Shown: positions 9,022 to 45,500 of the stretch, one piece after another | How the letters are laid out: every line of letters starts with the position of its first letter | How positions within the stretch are numbered: position 1 is the first letter of the stretch | Source: Octopus vulgaris | Lineage: Eukaryota | DNA: 64,000 bases | Direction: 5' to 3' | Assembly: GCA_951406725.2 (NCBI GenBank) | Contig: OX597839.1 | Span: forward strand, 14,632,001-14,696,000 | Made by a program: the position numbers

Positions 9022-12000
9022 ATAGGCAGATCCGCTGGATGTGTAATGTCAGTGTGCACACACAACAAAGTGTAAGCGTCCTAAGAGAAATGTTGGACAT
9101 AAGCAGCATCAGATGTGGTGTGCAAGAGAGATGGCTGCGCTGGTATGGTCATGTGCTGCATATGGATGAGGAGAGCTGTGTGAAGAAGTGTCACACCCTA
9201 ACAGTGGAAGGAACCCATGGAAGAGGGAGACCCTGGAAGACATGAGATGAGGTGGTGAAGCACGGCCTTCAAACATCACAATCAGAATCTCAATCAAAAT
9301 GGAAATTGTAATTGTGGCTGATGCCAGTGCTGCTTGACCGGCACCCGTGCTGGTGGCACGCAATAAGCACCATTCATGTGGATCGATGCTAGTCCTCCCT
9401 CCGCTGCCTCGACTGGCTCCAGTGCCGGTGGCACGTAAAAAGCACCATCTGAACATGGCCAATGCCGGTGCCACCTTCTGGCTTGCCAGTTCCCAGTTAA
9501 AGCCATGCCAGCATAAAAAATGGACATTAAATGATGACGATGATGATGATGATATATATATATATATATATAAAAACAAAATCCAACTGACATCAAATTT
9601 GTTTTCCTTCCATCAAAGTTTGTATATTGAACCATGGCAAACACAGTTGTTTTAGGCAACTGTTGAAGATGTACATTTTTTTTCTTTCAATATATTATTC
9701 TTATATACTAGTTTTTGTTTTTCTTTATTAATGCCTTGTGGTGTTAGTTATATTTCTTTTTACATTTCATCGAGTGTGATCGTTACCAATGTCGCCTTAC
9801 TGGAACCTGTGCCAGTGGCATGTGTAAAAGATTCGAGCGAGGTCATTGCCAGTACTGCCTGACTGGCCCCCGTGCCGGTGGCACGTAAAAAGCACCCACT
9901 ACACTCTCAGAGTGGTTGGCGTTAGGAAGGGTATCCAGCTGTAGAAAGTCTGCCAGATCAAGATTGAAGCCTGGTGCAGCCATCTGGTTCACCAGCCTTC
10001 AATCAAAATCGTCCAACCCATGCTAGCATGGAAAGCGGACGTTAAACGATGATGATGATGATGATGATATGTGTGTGTGTGTGTATGTGTGTGTATGTAG
10101 GAGAGAGAGAGAGAGAGAGTTATTAGAGAGGGATTATCAATTTCGGCAAAATTTTTTATAAGCTCTCTGTTAATACATCAAGCTAACAAAATTAAGACAA
10201 ATATGAATAAAAAAAATAACTTACTGCAGCTAAATTCATCAGAACCATCTGCACAGTCTGTTTCACCATCACAACGGAAATCTTTGGGAATACACTGACC
10301 ATTGTTACATGTGGCTTCAGTATGACGACAAGGTCCCTTAGGGGGGCCTGTACCTGGTCCAATCTCTGAAACAGTCAATGGCATAAATTTATACTGATTT
10401 CAACATTTTACAATGTGTATTATTTTAGTCAATCGGAAACTGGTAGTCTGTGATCCATTTTACATGGCACAGACAGAAACCATGTTTACTTTAGATTCAC
10501 TGCAGTCACATGTTATTTTGGACAAATAGAAACTAGTTATCTTCTGTGCCAAATTTGCTTACATGTGATTTGCTTACATGTGATGTCTCCAACATCTTGA
10601 AGTAGCAACTGACTTTGCCTGTAATCACACCATGCTACTGTCTTTAAAACACGAAGGACACATGTTGAGATGATCCAGGCTGTAGTAGCATTAAATTTGC
10701 CTGGTCAATGCATACTTGGGGCTAAACAACAATTGTATACATTTTACAACAATGGTAGCAGCATGACGTAATAGTTAATATTTAAAGAGAGACTTACGGG
10801 TGTCTATGATCAATCGGACGGTCTCGGATGCCCTTCCACTGTCACCAAAAGCAGTGCATACATATTCGCCGGCATCATTCTCAGTTACTGCATTGATCAT
10901 GAGAATACCATCAATAGATGAAGTCCTTGGTCCCAGAGCTCGCTGCAAGTAATAGCATTAAAAAATTACATTATAACAAACTACATGCTTTGCATTATTT
11001 GACCCAATCTCAGAGCAAAAATGAATGTAACTAAATATCGTAGGAAATTTTTCCTGGCATGCTGTTGATTCTTAACAACAACAAAAATGACAACCCTACC
11101 TAAGCATAACATCCTGTTTTTAAGGAATGGGAGAGGCAAAATACACATTCTCATATGTACCTGCTTTTATGCACTCACTCATACATACAATAGACTCCCA
11201 TGTAAATCTACTTTCACATACAAACTCATACATACAAGATACAAACAATCATTCTTATATCTTTAAACATTTATCCAAACAAACTATATATGTAAGTGCA
11301 TGTGTATATAAATATATATATATATATATTTCTTTACTACCCACAAGTGGCTAAACACAGAGGGGACAAACAAGGACAGACAAACGAATTAAGTCGATTA
11401 CATCGACCCCAGTGCGTAAATGGTACTTAATTTATCGACCCCGAAAGGATGAAAGGCAAAGTCGACCATGGCGGAATTTGAACTCAGAATGTAACGGCAG
11501 ATGAAATATGGCTACACATTTCGCCCGGCGTGCTAACGTTTCTGCCAGCTTGCCTTATATAAATATATATATATATATATAGTCAATAAAACATATATCA
11601 GAAAAGAAGCACACTCTAAAGAACAGAGTAGTAATTATTAAAACAAAAATATAAATTTTGGCTTTCATGGGTATGAAACCTTTGGTAACTTTATGACCAG
11701 AATTTTTGTTTTAATACACACACACACACACATGACAATCTTCTTTCAGTTTCCATCTGCCAAATCCACCCACATGACTTTGGGCAATAGCAGAAAACAC
11801 TTACTCGAGGTGCCATACAGAGGGACTGAACCCCATCCTCATGGTTGGGAAATGGAATCCTCAGTCACACAGCCATATTATCTTTCTACACTTAAATGTA
11901 CAATATAAATTTTGAATTTTTTAAACTATTTGCCACATGTTCAAAGATGAAACATTTTTTCACTACTTTTGTCTCTGCTCCTTTTTGATAGATTTACCAA

Positions 12001-42500: not shown

Positions 42501-45500
42501 TAAGATCAAACAATCACAGACCATGTTTCACTGTTGATGTTTATTAAAACTGCATATCTAGTGTTGTCATCGTACTACAAAAGACAGAATCACTTCCCAC
42601 TGCATTCCATTTCCAAAAATTAATTGTAGATAACTAAAATTTCGAAGTTGTCTCCCTTGCCTTCTTTTTTTTTTTTCTGTTTCAGAACTATCAGAGCGTG
42701 AAGCGCTCCTCATGACTGCAGGTTTGTGAGATGGCTGTGATCTGTAAACAGTTTTGAGTAGGAATTAGAAAGAGAAATACGAACATGTGATACACATGTG
42801 CACACTGAATTCATAAAATGAAAGAGAAGAATAAGAACGCAATGCGCATGACAAAGTAAAACAGAAGAGAAAAATAAAAAAAAGTTATACAATGGTCTGC
42901 ATGCCACGTCTGACACCACTATTATGCAGCTTTGCTGCAATTTTCATGTTTTAAACAAGAATTATTTAAATAATGATTTGTTCTCATTATTAAAATTACA
43001 ATTAAGACAAAGAGCCAGGAGAATCATTAGCATGTTGGACAAAATGCTAAATGGCATTTCATCTGTCTTTACATTCTGAGTTCAAATTCTTCCAAGGTTG
43101 ACTTTGCTTTGCATTCTTTTAGGGTTGATGAAATAAGTATTAGTTGAGTACTATAGGAGCACTCCGTCGGTTACAACGACGAGGGTCCCAGCTGATACGA
43201 TCAACGGAACAGGCTGCTCATGAAATTAACGTGCAAGTGACTGAGCAATCCACAGACACGTGTACCCCTAACGTAGTTCTCAGGGAGATTCAGCGTGAAA
43301 AAAGTGTGACAAGGCCGGCCCTTTGAAATAAAGGTACAATTCATTTTTGCCAGCGGAGTGGACTGGAACAACGTGAAATAAAGTGTCTTGCTCAAGGACA
43401 CAACGCGTTGCCGGGAATCAAACTCACCACCTTACGATCATGAGCTGAATGCCCCTAACCACTAAGCCACGTGCCTTCACTAGTTGAGTACTAGGGTCAA
43501 TGAAATTGACTAGCTCCCTTACCCCAAAGTTTTAGTCTTGTGTCTACAATAGAAAGGATTACTAAAAGTATAATTTTTATTAATATATTTTGGCTTACTG
43601 CATCATGTATGCTACAGTCTGCTTCACTATGAGCAATGGTTAGAGAAAAAATTAACTTGGACATTTCGATATTACATAGTAGTTGTTGTTGTTGTTTAGG
43701 CCCATGTCAACCCTATGAGGTAAAACTATGATCAAGAATGTTTCACCTGCGATCATACTGTCCTTTTTACTTCTTTTGTAAATGACGATTAACGACACCG
43801 CATTAACGTCTTCTTAATTTACAAGAGTTAAGCTATGATTTGATAGAGTTTTGGCTAGTATTTCTAACAGCTGAACAACCATGTAGAGGCTCCCTTCCTG
43901 GCTGGATTTTCACAAACTTTTGTTATTGTTATTAAGTGCCAGGTCAGTCCTAAGCAAGCTGACCTATGATCAAAGGTGTTCTAGTTACAACCATCCCATC
44001 TAGGGCTGTATTACACTAACCAACAGGCCATTCCCCTTTGTTTTTAAATATGTTTCTCAAAGTATTAGGCATGATTTGTGGGTGACTTGGCTTGCTGCTA
44101 CTACTTGCAGGTCAAGTGGCCATATAGCTGCAATTCACATTAAATTGGAGAGGCACCTTGAACTGGATCATGAAACTTTGTGCTGCCAATTCTAAAACCA
44201 ATTACATATTATCAAACCTTTTTAGTATATGATGAAATGTGCATTTCTAATGAGAAAACAATACAAAAAGCATTTCCAGCTTACCAAGTTCTACAATAAG
44301 GTTTGCTGTCTTGGCAAATTTTTGGCCTCGGATAATAGCTTCGCAGATATAATCATCAGCATCAGATGGTTGAGTATCATAAATAATAAGTCTGTTGCCA
44401 TCAATGTGACTTCTTGTTGGTGGAAGAGCTCTCTGCAAAGGATAGATAGAAATGAAAGATATGAATGTGTTGTGTGTGTGTGTGTGTATGTGTGGAATAG
44501 CATGCATATGCATGTTACCTGTTTTTTATTCAATCTTTAACCCTTCTATTTATCTAACTGATGTTCTTTCCTTTATAATACCTGCGTTCCCACTTTTCCA
44601 CCTCTCCCAGCTCAGCCACAGCTTTCTCCTTTCAGAGTGACAGACAAAAGGAAACCAGTCATCATCATCATCATCACTGTTTTTTTAACATAATTTCTAG
44701 GTAACTAAAAAATTTTAAACTTCGTATACTGGTAGAATGTGTTTATAAAGCATCTTTTTCTCTTGGCTTTATTGAGAAAATTCTATAGTTTGTAAGATAT
44801 TTGTTGTTTTTTTTCTTCAATTTCTGCAATTTCAACCAATCAGTGACGTCCATTGAGGTAAAATACATTCTGTGCCGTATGAATATGTCCCTCGTTTAAG
44901 AAACAGATTGGGTTTATTTACATTTGTGAAGAAAAAAAGATACCCTTCCCCCTACCCCTAACCCTAAAACAGATTGAAATGCAATAGATCGATACTAGGG
45001 TCATAATTATGGGTGACAATTTCATATGACACCGCTAGAAAAAACTGCCGTTCAAACCGAAAAGATCCAAATTCTCTTCTCAGAACACACTGATTTGTTT
45101 TATTAGTGGGTAATTTTAAATCATTTTTTTCTTGACACTGATAATCCTTAGTTTTCTTATAGATGAGCCTGCTATCTACTAAAGCTATTGCTAAAAAAAA
45201 AAAAGTATAGAATTTAATATTTAGTGGTGTTGGTGATGGTGTGAATTATGGAGAGGGCAAAGCAAAAACTTACACCAGACTGCCTGAGCCAGTTGATTTC
45301 TGAGGCTTCTGCTTCCAGAACATCACAGGTAAATAATGCTTGACGTCCAGCTTTCACCCTGATATTAGGTGGGTTTATTCTGACAGTAACTGTTGTTACT
45401 GATAAGTACAAAAATAAGAAAATATTTTAGACAAATATTTAAGAATATTTCAGAAGATCAAATAATTTCTATAATAGTCCATACAATATTGAGCAGATGC

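What the first reader, a model, noticed from the sequence alone, without database searches (positions are those of the whole stretch)
10798..45398. Nine split-Ig cassettes with frame-interchangeable half-domain exons inserted into perlecan domain II
Seen: 18 exons encode nine Ig domains (2,445 nt, 815 aa) between the fourth and fifth LDLa exons of the window. Every N-half exon is exactly 125 nt (phase 1-0) and every C-half is 148 or 145 nt (phase 0-1), despite strong sequence divergence. Known: vertebrate perlecan domain II has four LDLa repeats and one Ig, and its long Ig array is in domain IV. Dscam generates diversity with half-Ig alternative exons, and unc-52 splices Ig exons alternatively. 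Inference: any N-half can join any downstream C-half in frame (45 pairings), and whole domains can be skipped. This could be a combinatorial, length-tunable extracellular-matrix isoform system. One skip (Ig5 C-half to the LDLa at 10365) would create TAG.
Basis: partly seen in the sequence, partly recalled or inferred. Interest (0 to 1): 0.85.

Follow-up and report, generated by a model that had tools for sequence, protein, structure and literature searches.

The report
Octopus perlecan's nine-Ig tandem array
This is part of the octopus gene for perlecan, a basement-membrane protein, in which one immunoglobulin domain found in other invertebrates has been copied to nine; public gene models always keep all nine, so it looks like a fixed extension, not a mix-and-match splicing system.

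Summary
On the minus strand, 18 exons (nine of 125 nt, five of 148 nt, four of 145 nt; 2,445 nt) encode nine split I-set Ig domains between LDLa exons. All N-to-C joins are in frame, and only one skip (Ig5C to the next LDLa exon) creates TAG.

The window is the Octopus sinensis / O. vulgaris perlecan (HSPG2/trol/unc-52) locus. All 26 exons map contiguously, at 100% identity, to residues 779-1973 of RefSeq XP_029651512.1.

The array is not a new insertion site. In 37 of 38 non-cephalopod protostome perlecans, about 100-130 aa (one Ig) sit at the same place, before the conserved LDLa x3 - Ig - laminin block. Octopus species and one more distant record (GAB1602266.1) have about 825 aa there. All nine Ig pair 1:1 between O. 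sinensis and that record, so the expansion is old and conserved. It is built from two alternating subtypes (ABABABBAB).

The combinatorial-splicing idea finds no support. All 14 full-length annotated isoforms seen contain the whole array. The annotated variation lies in LDLa cassette exons and elsewhere. N and C halves alternate, unlike a Dscam cluster. Frame compatibility follows automatically from duplicating a two-exon Ig unit. No transcript reads were available to examine.

The parts
60103..60222 (-). LDLa exon L1 (120 nt, phase 1-1); P0343 residues 779-817. Varies among annotated models.
   Evidence: No close match in 2 of 4 O. vulgaris models, and only 43% best match in all 7 O. bimaculoides isoforms.
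53701..53817 (-). LDLa exon L2 (117 nt); P0343 819-856
51715..51831 (-). LDLa exon L3 (117 nt); P0343 858-895
47624..47731 (-). LDLa exon L4 (108 nt); P0343 897-931. Annotated cassette exon with an AAG acceptor.
   Evidence: Absent from O. sinensis X3, O. bimaculoides X4 and 2 of 4 O. vulgaris models.
45274..45398 (-). Ig1 N-half exon, 125 nt (type A)
   Evidence: matches I-set profile positions 3-37 of 90
44285..44432 (-). Ig1 C-half exon, 148 nt (type A)
   Evidence: matches I-set profile positions 54-90 of 90
39858..39982 (-). Ig2 N-half exon, 125 nt (type B)
38298..38445 (-). Ig2 C-half exon, 148 nt (type B)
37085..37209 (-). Ig3 N-half exon, 125 nt (type A)
34544..34691 (-). Ig3 C-half exon, 148 nt (type A)
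33185..33309 (-). Ig4 N-half exon, 125 nt (type B)
31598..31745 (-). Ig4 C-half exon, 148 nt (type B). NAGNAG acceptor; the alternative start at 31742 would give 145 nt.
30394..30518 (-). Ig5 N-half exon, 125 nt (type A); donor GTTAGT
28237..28384 (-). Ig5 C-half exon, 148 nt (type A). Last base is T, so joining it to L5 gives TAG.
26425..26549 (-). Ig6 N-half exon, 125 nt (type B); donor GTATGT
25491..25635 (-). Ig6 C-half exon, 145 nt (type B); donor GTTTGT
24738..24862 (-). Ig7 N-half exon, 125 nt (type B; the extra B unit)
20918..21062 (-). Ig7 C-half exon, 145 nt (type B)
14359..14483 (-). Ig8 N-half exon, 125 nt (type A)
12871..13015 (-). Ig8 C-half exon, 145 nt (type A)
12277..12401 (-). 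Ig9 N-half exon, 125 nt (type B)
10798..10942 (-). Ig9 C-half exon, 145 nt (type B)
10225..10365 (-). LDLa exon L5 (141 nt); P0343 1748-1793. First of the conserved LDLa x3 block.
   Evidence: the orthologous LDLa is visible in the gastropod proteins
8660..8779 (-). LDLa exon L6 (120 nt); P0343 1795-1833
7965..8096 (-). LDLa exon L7 (132 nt); P0343 1835-1877
3490..3777 (-). Unsplit single-exon Ig (288 nt, phase 1-1). This is the canonical perlecan domain II Ig that precedes laminin-like domain III; P0343 1879-1973.

Best explanation
The window holds part of the perlecan (HSPG2 / trol / unc-52 orthologue) gene of Octopus sinensis or O. vulgaris. In protostome perlecans the N-terminal LDLa array is followed by one I-set Ig, three LDLa repeats, a second Ig and then the laminin-like domain III. 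In the lineage leading to octopus, that first Ig was already split into two exons with phases 1-0 and 0-1. It was duplicated into two diverged subtypes, A and B. The A-B pair (four exons) was then duplicated in tandem, with one extra B, giving ABABABBAB, that is nine Ig in 18 exons. Because every copy inherits the same intron position and phases, and because the Ig fold tolerates few length changes, the exon sizes stay uniform and all joins are in frame. This is a by-product of how the array arose. The array is most likely spliced constitutively. If so, it would add about 815 residues of rod-like Ig spacer between the LDLa clusters, comparable to the Ig rod of domain IV. Shown here: gene identity, exon structure, ancestry from a single Ig site, the two subtypes, conservation of all nine units in a second lineage, and full inclusion in the annotated isoforms. 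Inferred: the order of the duplications, constitutive splicing in vivo, and the spacer role.
For: Gene identity.
- The single-exon Ig best matches HSPG2/perlecan of gastropods (69-74% identity), vertebrates and nematodes.
- All 23 exon peptides tested are 100% identical to O. sinensis X1 and X2 and to one O. vulgaris model (CAI9741265); the other O. sinensis and O. vulgaris models are identical at every exon except the cassettes L1 and/or L4. They are 88-100% identical to O. bimaculoides, except L1.
- The 26 exons map contiguously to P0343 residues 779-1973.
- P0343 has 18 LDLa, 3 Laminin_B, 9 EGF_laminin, 3 Laminin_G and 21-22 Ig stretches.

Ancestral single Ig.
- The stretch between the LDLa array and the LDLa x3 - Ig block is 99-131 aa in 37 of 38 non-cephalopod protostome perlecans (Saccostrea 207 aa). 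It is 825-827 aa in O. sinensis, O. bimaculoides and GAB1602266.1.
- The one-Ig sequence is visible in gastropod proteins and in the extracted stretches.

Old, conserved expansion.
- In a maximum-likelihood tree of 41 Ig units, 9 of 9 octopus units pair with one unit of GAB1602266.1 (ultrafast bootstrap 93-100).
- Type A (Ig1, 3, 5, 8) and type B (Ig2, 4, 6, 7, 9) are clades with 99/98 and 99/99 support.
- N halves and C halves give the same A set by identity.
- Intron sequences share no repeats other than microsatellites and dispersed elements.
- There are no extra or decayed copies.

Constitutive use.
- All 14 full-length annotated isoforms contain all 18 exons in an 814-aa span.
- Every annotated isoform difference lies outside the array.
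- All 18 acceptors are YAG and 15 of 18 donors are GTRAG. The annotated cassette exon L4 has an AAG acceptor.

Ig fold.
- The N half matches I-set profile positions 3-37 and the C half positions 54-90 of 90.
- Cys and Trp in the N half, and D..Y.C in the C half, are invariant in 9 of 9 copies.
Against: The isoform evidence comes from computational or curated gene models, not from reads I could inspect. Only 15 of the 28 members of the Octopus protein cluster were listed, and one of those is a 341-aa fragment. Rare or tissue-restricted skipping would not appear in such models. Three donors are off-consensus (Ig5N GTTAGT, Ig6N GTATGT, Ig6C GTTTGT). Perlecan genes elsewhere are heavily alternatively spliced: the names run to isoform X47 in a shrimp and X33 in a tick, and unc-52 exon 17 can be skipped (PMC2762039). 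The central units Ig3-Ig7 are less conserved against GAB1602266.1 (54-69% per exon, except Ig5C at 78%) than Ig1-2 and Ig8-9 (71-85%). This would also fit less constant use. The spacer function is an inference; nothing here tests binding or mechanics.
Confidence: 0.8

Rival explanations
1. Cassette-type length tuning, as in unc-52. Whole Ig domains, or A-B pairs, would be skipped in some tissues or stages by joining a C-half donor to a later N-half or LDLa acceptor. This would give perlecan isoforms with fewer than nine Ig in this region.
For: All such skips keep the frame, and only one (Ig5C to L5) creates a stop. Neighbouring LDLa exons L1 and L4, which have the same 1-1 phase class, are annotated cassettes. 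unc-52 skips Ig-region exons (PMC2762039 passages; PMC6266596 passages). Ig6 has weak donors on both of its exons. The central units evolve faster.
Against: None of the 14 full-length annotated isoforms from three Octopus species lacks any array exon. All nine units are kept 1:1, with intact Ig core residues, in a second and more distant lineage. Acceptors are uniformly strong.
Confidence: 0.12
2. Dscam-like combinatorial half-domain splicing. Any N half would be joined to any downstream C half, making up to 45 chimeric Ig domains as a diversity system.
For: All N halves end and all C halves start at a codon boundary, so the 45 joins are in frame. Dscam1 does vary the N-terminal halves of Ig2 and Ig3 (PMC8787164 passages).
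Against: Dscam clusters are runs of alternatives for the same half, flanked by constant exons, with a docking site and one selector per variant. Here N and C halves alternate strictly. No intronic element recurring once per cassette was found, although that search used a minimum length of 30 nt and short selectors could be missed. N and C halves fall into the same A and B sets, so each half has diverged together with its own partner. Most cross-joins would pair an A half with a B half that are only 23-33% identical to the matching partner type. No annotated isoform shows such a join.
Confidence: 0.03
3. Assembly or annotation artefact: the array is an over-collapsed or falsely duplicated stretch, or a string of pseudo-exons.
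For: Tandem repeats are a common source of assembly error.
Against: The copies are only 23-57% identical in protein, and only the type-A C halves are detectable as DNA repeats, at 61-74% (family D8). Mis-assembly of near-identical repeats therefore does not apply. The same nine units occur in three Octopus species' annotations and in GAB1602266.1. All 18 exons are open, with canonical splice sites.
Confidence: 0.01

Closest known systems
[quoted passage not shown]
   Same: The overall order is the same: LDLa array, Ig, LDLa x3, Ig, laminin-like domain III, Ig-rich domain IV, LamG/EGF domain V. The three downstream LDLa repeats and the last Ig are clear orthologues; the last Ig is 69-74% identical to gastropods.
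   Different: Nine Ig (about 815 aa) where 37 of 38 other protostome perlecans have about 100-130 aa. Two alternating Ig subtypes.
Vertebrate perlecan / HSPG2
   Same: LDLa repeats followed by one Ig and then domain III. Ig number varies between species through duplication: mouse lacks 7 Ig motifs found in human, and Trichoplax has about 36-38 (PMC6266596 passages; PMC4398486 passages). I recall, without having verified it, that human domain IV Ig repeats are each encoded by two exons (Cohen et al. 1993 PNAS; not held). The report that skipping single domain IV exons 52 or 73 probably causes a frameshift (PMC6266596) is consistent with this.
   Different: Vertebrate domain II has four LDLa and a single Ig, with no Ig inside the LDLa region. 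The long Ig array is in domain IV.
C. elegans unc-52 alternative splicing of Ig-region exons
   Same: Perlecan orthologue. In-frame skipping of exons in an Ig array (for example exon 17) yields functional isoforms (PMC2762039 passages).
   Different: That splicing is in domain IV and is demonstrated experimentally. For the octopus array no skipped isoform is annotated.
Drosophila Dscam1 variable exon clusters 4 and 6
   Same: Exons encoding half of an Ig domain; in-frame interchangeability.
   Different: Dscam clusters are 12 and 48 tandem alternatives of the same (N-terminal) half, of which one is chosen, using a docking site and selector sequences (PMC8787164 passages). The octopus array alternates N and C halves of nine complete domains, and all are included in the annotated models.

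Membership tests
Perlecan / HSPG2 / Trol / UNC-52 orthologue | LDLa repeats followed by an Ig and then laminin-B / laminin-EGF domain III | tested here: met
   Window exons L5-L7 and the single-exon Ig map to P0343 residues 1748-1973. P0343 then has 3 Laminin_B and 9 EGF_laminin stretches.
Perlecan / HSPG2 / Trol / UNC-52 orthologue | C-terminal Ig-rich domain IV and LamG/EGF domain V | tested here: met
   P0343 has 21-22 Ig, 3 Laminin_G and 3 EGF stretches. This part lies outside the window; the link rests on 100% identity of all window exons to P0343.
Perlecan / HSPG2 / Trol / UNC-52 orthologue | Best sequence matches of a diagnostic domain are perlecans across phyla | tested here: met
   The 95-aa domain II Ig hits HSPG2/perlecan of gastropods, vertebrates, hemichordate, annelid and nematodes.
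Perlecan / HSPG2 / Trol / UNC-52 orthologue | N-terminal SEA module / domain I with heparan sulfate sites (vertebrate definition) | tested here: not met
   No SEA (PF01390) match in P0343 at E<=0.01. This feature is not required of invertebrate perlecans: Drosophila and C. elegans lack domain I (PMC6266596). Several other molluscs do carry PF01390 in the precomputed lists.
Two-exon (split) I-set Ig module, N-CAM/perlecan type | The two exons together cover one I-set domain with its Cys...Trp...D.G.Y.C core | tested here: met
   N half matches I-set profile positions 3-37 and C half positions 54-90 of 90. C and W are invariant in the N half, and D, Y and C in the C half, in 9 of 9 copies.
Two-exon (split) I-set Ig module, N-CAM/perlecan type | Domain borders in phase 1 and an internal intron in phase 0 | tested here: met
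   borders confirmed against P0343. That this is the usual N-CAM/HSPG2 arrangement is recalled, not verified here.
Dscam-type mutually exclusive half-Ig exon cluster | Tandem run of alternative exons all encoding the same half-domain, between constant exons | tested here: not met
   N and C halves alternate strictly, 9 + 9. Definition from PMC8787164.
Dscam-type mutually exclusive half-Ig exon cluster | Conserved docking site plus one complementary selector sequence per variant exon | tested here: inconclusive
   The repeat search (seed 11, minimum 30 nt) found only microsatellites, SINE-like elements and the exons themselves. Shorter or degenerate elements could be missed, and no second species' introns were available.
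Dscam-type mutually exclusive half-Ig exon cluster | Each transcript contains one variant of the cluster | tested here: not met
   All 14 full-length annotated isoforms contain all 18 exons. Reads were not available.
unc-52-type cassette skipping of Ig exons | Skips preserve the reading frame | tested here: met
   All C_i to N_j, L4 to N_j and C_i to L5 joins are in frame; one of them creates TAG.
unc-52-type cassette skipping of Ig exons | Isoforms lacking one or more Ig units exist | tested here: not met
   None among the 14 annotated full-length isoforms; the variable segments lie outside the array. 13 of the 28 cluster members were not listed, and transcript reads cannot be tested with these tools.

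The most novel reading that the evidence does not exclude
The nine-Ig array may be a cephalopod-specific, regulated length module of perlecan. In particular tissues or stages, whole Ig units or A-B pairs would be skipped, most plausibly around the weak-donor Ig5N/Ig6 exons. Occasionally an N half might be joined to a later C half. This would give a graded series of basement-membrane proteoglycan lengths that current gene models miss. The alternating A/B super-repeat, conserved 1:1 in a second lineage, would then be the structural unit of that tuning.
Probability: 0.1. Interest if true: 0.7.

Novelty: new variant of a known kind. Interest (0 to 1): 0.3.

Why it matters
Perlecan is a core basement-membrane proteoglycan, and its module numbers are known to vary between animals. 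This case shows a specific, old and conserved nine-fold expansion of one Ig module in the LDLa-rich N-terminal region. It was seen here only in Octopus species and one related record, while 37 of 38 other protostome perlecans examined keep a single Ig there. It is a clean example of how duplicating a two-exon module yields uniform exon sizes and phases without any need for combinatorial splicing. It also gives a defined target, 18 exons with known borders, for anyone who has cephalopod long-read transcriptomes. If the array were variably spliced it would be a new way to tune matrix protein length, but nothing seen here points that way.

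Tried and rejected
1. A whole-library phmmer search with the 95-aa domain II Ig was dominated by giant multi-Ig proteins through summed scores. It was useful only after I re-scored single domains in a script.

2. HMMs built from the window's half-Ig exons were too specific to count Ig domains in other phyla. 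I replaced them with the lengths of the stretches between LDLa hits.

3. A search with the array region of the public O. sinensis protein found only the Octopus cluster and GAB1602266.1 as close relatives among proteins of 2,723-8,666 aa. Everything else listed was 21-28% identical, mostly generic multi-Ig proteins (hemicentin, obscurin) plus a few non-cephalopod perlecans. Squid, cuttlefish and nautilus perlecans were not seen, so how far back in cephalopods the array goes stays unchecked.

4. The organism of GAB1602266.1 was cut off in the tool outputs. I cite it by accession only.

5. The human perlecan gene-structure paper (Cohen et al. 1993) and the 1994 Biochem J review are not held. A search for 'perlecan' + 'two exons' + 'immunoglobulin' gave 3 papers, none about gene structure judging by title and abstract. 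The two-exon rule for HSPG2 and N-CAM Ig repeats is therefore recalled only.

6. PMC2174950 (trol) holds nothing on LDL repeats, exons or splicing.

7. Literature on cephalopod or mollusc perlecan architecture. 'perlecan' + 'octopus' gave 12 papers, none with either term in title or abstract. 'perlecan'/'mollus'/'LDL receptor'/'domain architecture' (at least 3 of 4 terms) gave 15 papers, of which 10 were listed, none on this topic. One search was badly posed: none of its 15 listed papers held 'perlecan'.

8. The assembly-artefact reading was rejected (see rivals).

9. Genome contigs (bacteria and archaea only), the phage, plasmid and E. coli collections and the ESM Atlas were not used, because they cannot hold cephalopod genes.

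10. I did not build, fold or search a joined spliced model from the window, and I did not make chimeric N_i + C_j sequences. Whether such chimeras could fold therefore stays untested.

Full report
**What is there**

The window has no N, is about 36% G+C, and is rich in microsatellites. On the minus strand a six-frame scan shows LDLa-like and Ig-like open frames. I required an AG acceptor, a GT donor and an open frame.
- nine N-half exons of 125 nt, where two nucleotides complete a split codon and the exon ends on a codon boundary;
- nine C-half exons, of 148 nt for Ig1-5 and 145 nt for Ig6-9, each starting on a codon boundary and carrying one extra nucleotide.

The total is 2,445 nt. I built HMMs from the nine N halves and the nine C halves and scanned all 2,826 stop-to-stop frames of 15 aa or more. 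They find nine hits each, followed by a cliff: 68.9 to 6.5 bits for N halves, and 76.0 to 23.4 to 6.5 bits for C halves. The 23.4-bit hit is the separate single-exon Ig. There are therefore no extra or decayed copies. The same scan finds seven LDLa exons, four upstream and three downstream of the array.

**What the gene is**

The unsplit 95-aa Ig at 3490-3777 best matches HSPG2/perlecan from gastropods (69-74% identity), vertebrates (about 50%) and nematodes. I worked exon by exon. I did not build or search a joined spliced model from the window, and that step is left out of this report. All whole-protein comparisons used public proteins as the tools returned them.

- Every one of the 23 exon peptides tested is 100% identical to O. 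sinensis isoforms X1 and X2 and to O. vulgaris CAI9741265. The remaining O. sinensis and O. vulgaris models differ only at the cassette exons L1 and/or L4. They are 88-100% identical to O. bimaculoides isoforms, except LDLa exon L1.
- The 26 exons of the window map to residues 779-1973 of O. sinensis XP_029651512.1 (P0343), with exactly one split-codon residue between neighbours. This independently confirms all the borders.
- P0343 has 18 LDLa, 3 Laminin_B, 9 laminin-EGF, 3 Laminin_G and 21-22 Ig stretches in Pfam, which is a full perlecan.
- A single N-half exon matches I-set profile positions 3-37 of 90, and a C-half exon positions 54-90.
- The Cys and Trp of the N half and the D..Y.C of the C half are invariant in all nine copies.

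**Is it an insertion?**

No. Gastropod proteins already show LDLa array - one Ig - LDLa x3 - Ig - laminin. I mapped LDLa repeats and the orthologue of the last Ig in public perlecans and measured the stretch in front of the LDLa x3 block.
- It is 99-131 aa in 37 of 38 non-cephalopod protostome proteins: 12 gastropod, 12 bivalve, 2 annelid, 1 nemertean, 1 priapulid, 7 arthropod and 3 unnamed or unresolved rows. Saccostrea is the one exception, at 207 aa.
- It is 825-827 aa in O. sinensis, O. bimaculoides and GAB1602266.1.
- An earlier table gave 101-147 aa for shrimp, tick, mayfly, bee, mosquito, beetle and butterfly.

One Ig at this site is therefore the standard protostome arrangement. Many molluscs even have a second Ig-sized stretch further upstream, and scallops have 188-282 aa there. 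Octopus has expanded the proximal Ig to nine. Vertebrates lack an Ig inside the LDLa region: LDLa x4-5 are followed directly by the Ig (abstract of PMC2289301). A published survey of perlecan evolution, of which I read passages (PMC4398486), covers placozoan, cnidarian, nematode and human proteins. It does not mention molluscs: the terms 'mollus' and 'Lottia' occur 0 times.

**History of the array**

The units fall into two subtypes that alternate: A = Ig1, 3, 5, 8 and B = Ig2, 4, 6, 7, 9, giving the order ABABABBAB. N halves and C halves give the same A set by identity, so the halves have stayed with their partners.

I built a maximum-likelihood tree of 41 units: nine from O. sinensis, nine from GAB1602266.1, eleven single Ig from other lophotrochozoans, and twelve domain II terminal Ig.
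- Types A and B are clades, with 99/98 and 99/98-99 support (99/98 and 99/99).
- All nine octopus units pair with one unit of GAB1602266.1 (ultrafast bootstrap 93-100).
- The terminal Ig forms a separate clade (100/100).
- The placement of A and B among the single Ig of other molluscs has only weak support (80-87).

The full array thus predates the split of Octopus from the GAB1602266.1 lineage. That record's array is 69% identical to octopus and its terminal Ig 95%. Its organism name was cut off in the outputs.

At the DNA level only the type-A C halves are still detectable as repeats, at 61-74%. The introns share nothing but microsatellites and dispersed SINE-like elements.

Exon length is not absolutely fixed across lineages. 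GAB1602266.1 has a 3-residue deletion in the Ig3 N-half region and a 2-residue insertion at the Ig5 N-half region relative to octopus. Its exon borders were not available.

**Does it work as a combinatorial splice system?**

I found no sign of that.
- All 14 full-length annotated isoforms listed contain the whole array as an uninterrupted 814-aa span. These are seven from O. bimaculoides, three from O. sinensis and four from O. vulgaris, out of 15 members listed from a cluster of 28.
- Alignment of the isoforms puts every difference elsewhere: single LDLa cassettes of 36-40 aa (including L4 and, in O. vulgaris, L1 of this window), N-terminal segments, and domain V.
- The cassette exon L4 has a weak AAG acceptor. 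All 18 Ig exons have YAG acceptors, and 15 of 18 have GTRAG donors. The exceptions are Ig5N, Ig6N and Ig6C.
- Dscam1's half-Ig diversity comes from runs of alternatives for the same half, of which one is chosen by docking-site and selector pairing (PMC8787164, passages). Here N and C halves of complete domains alternate.
- unc-52 does skip Ig-region exons (PMC2762039, passages). In-frame skipping is therefore the more credible of the two splice ideas, but it is not annotated here.

The in-frame property is automatic for tandem copies of a module with phases 1-0 and 0-1. I recall that the same two-exon layout holds for N-CAM and human HSPG2 Ig repeats (Cohen et al. 1993), but that paper is not held. 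The statement that skipping single HSPG2 domain IV exons probably causes a frameshift (PMC6266596) is consistent with it.

**Most likely function**

The array is most likely a constitutive stretch of about 815 residues, a nine-domain Ig rod lengthening the N-terminal LDLa region, with an A/B two-domain super-repeat. This is an inference from the anatomy and from the general role ascribed to Ig repeats in perlecan (PMC6266596). Nothing here tests it.

**Limits**
- No transcript reads and no other cephalopod or mollusc genomes could be examined.
- 13 of the 28 Octopus cluster members were not listed.
- Squid, cuttlefish and nautilus were not seen.
- Supplementary files of papers are closed and none was consulted. 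The perlecan evolution paper's supplementary figures might show further invertebrate architectures.
- My literature searches found no paper describing this array. The gene and its isoforms are, however, already in RefSeq.

**Verdict**

The splice-system interpretation is not supported. The feature is a lineage-specific expansion of a known module in a known gene, and is of modest interest.

Noticed in passing
window 16798-19845 (+ strand): An intact 1,016-aa ORF of a non-LTR (LINE-like) retrotransposon. It has apurinic-type endonuclease, reverse transcriptase and a PHD-finger match. It lies antisense to perlecan in the 6.4-kb intron between Ig7C and Ig8N. It explains the G+C bump to 47% at 16-20 kb.
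   Followed up: partly
window 25904-26110, in the 789-nt intron between Ig6N and Ig6C: A near-perfect palindrome of about 205 nt. Its arms are about 100 nt and 92% complementary by blastn. It folds at -144 kcal/mol, against -37.6 +/- 4.1 for shuffles (z = -26). It occurs only once in the window. It may be a foldback or MITE-like element. Whether it affects splicing of Ig6, whose two donors are both weak, is unknown.
   Followed up: partly
window 47624-47731 (L4) and 60103-60222 (L1): These LDLa exons, not the Ig exons, are what varies between annotated Octopus isoforms. L4 is absent from O. sinensis X3, O. bimaculoides X4 and two O. vulgaris models. L1 is absent from two O. vulgaris models. 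L4 has an AAG acceptor.
   Followed up: yes
window 31742-31745 (acceptor of Ig4C): A NAGNAG acceptor (cacagCAG). Use of the downstream AG would remove one Gln and make this exon 145 nt. The RefSeq model uses the upstream AG.
   Followed up: no
window 22665-23327: A tandem repeat of four 166-nt units (86-95% identical) in the intron between Ig7N and Ig7C (family D6).
   Followed up: no
window 11389-11554, 26783-26995, 36662-36899, 37224-37678, 43003-43153 and others: Dispersed SINE-like repeats, some with a tRNA-like 'GGAATTTGAACTCAGAA' core. They lie in both orientations in the array introns and form long-range inverted pairs of 72-92% (families D7, D10, D11, D13, D14 and I1-I4). They are not arranged once per cassette.
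   Followed up: partly
P0258 (GAB1602266.1) residues 761-1573 compared with window Ig3N and Ig5N: This more distant record has a 3-residue deletion in the Ig3 N-half region and a 2-residue insertion at the Ig5 N-half region. The 'exactly 125 nt' rule probably does not hold in that species. The central units Ig3-Ig7 are 54-69% identical per exon (except Ig5C, 78%), against 71-85% for Ig1-2 and Ig8-9.
   Followed up: partly
Public perlecans P0226, P0227, P0099 (scallops), P0273 (Saccostrea), P0017 (Ptychodera), P0109: Other lineages also vary the Ig-sized stretches within the LDLa region. Scallops have 188-282 aa at an upstream site, and Saccostrea has 207 aa at the proximal site. A hemichordate protein has 640 aa and an unnamed isoform (P0109) 265 aa before the LDLa x3 block. 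The content of these stretches was not examined.
   Followed up: no
window 27418-27612: A (GTA/GTG/GCA)n microsatellite of about 190 nt in the intron between Ig5C and Ig6N. It reads as a poly-Tyr/His/Cys open frame on the minus strand. It is not an exon in any annotated model.
   Followed up: no
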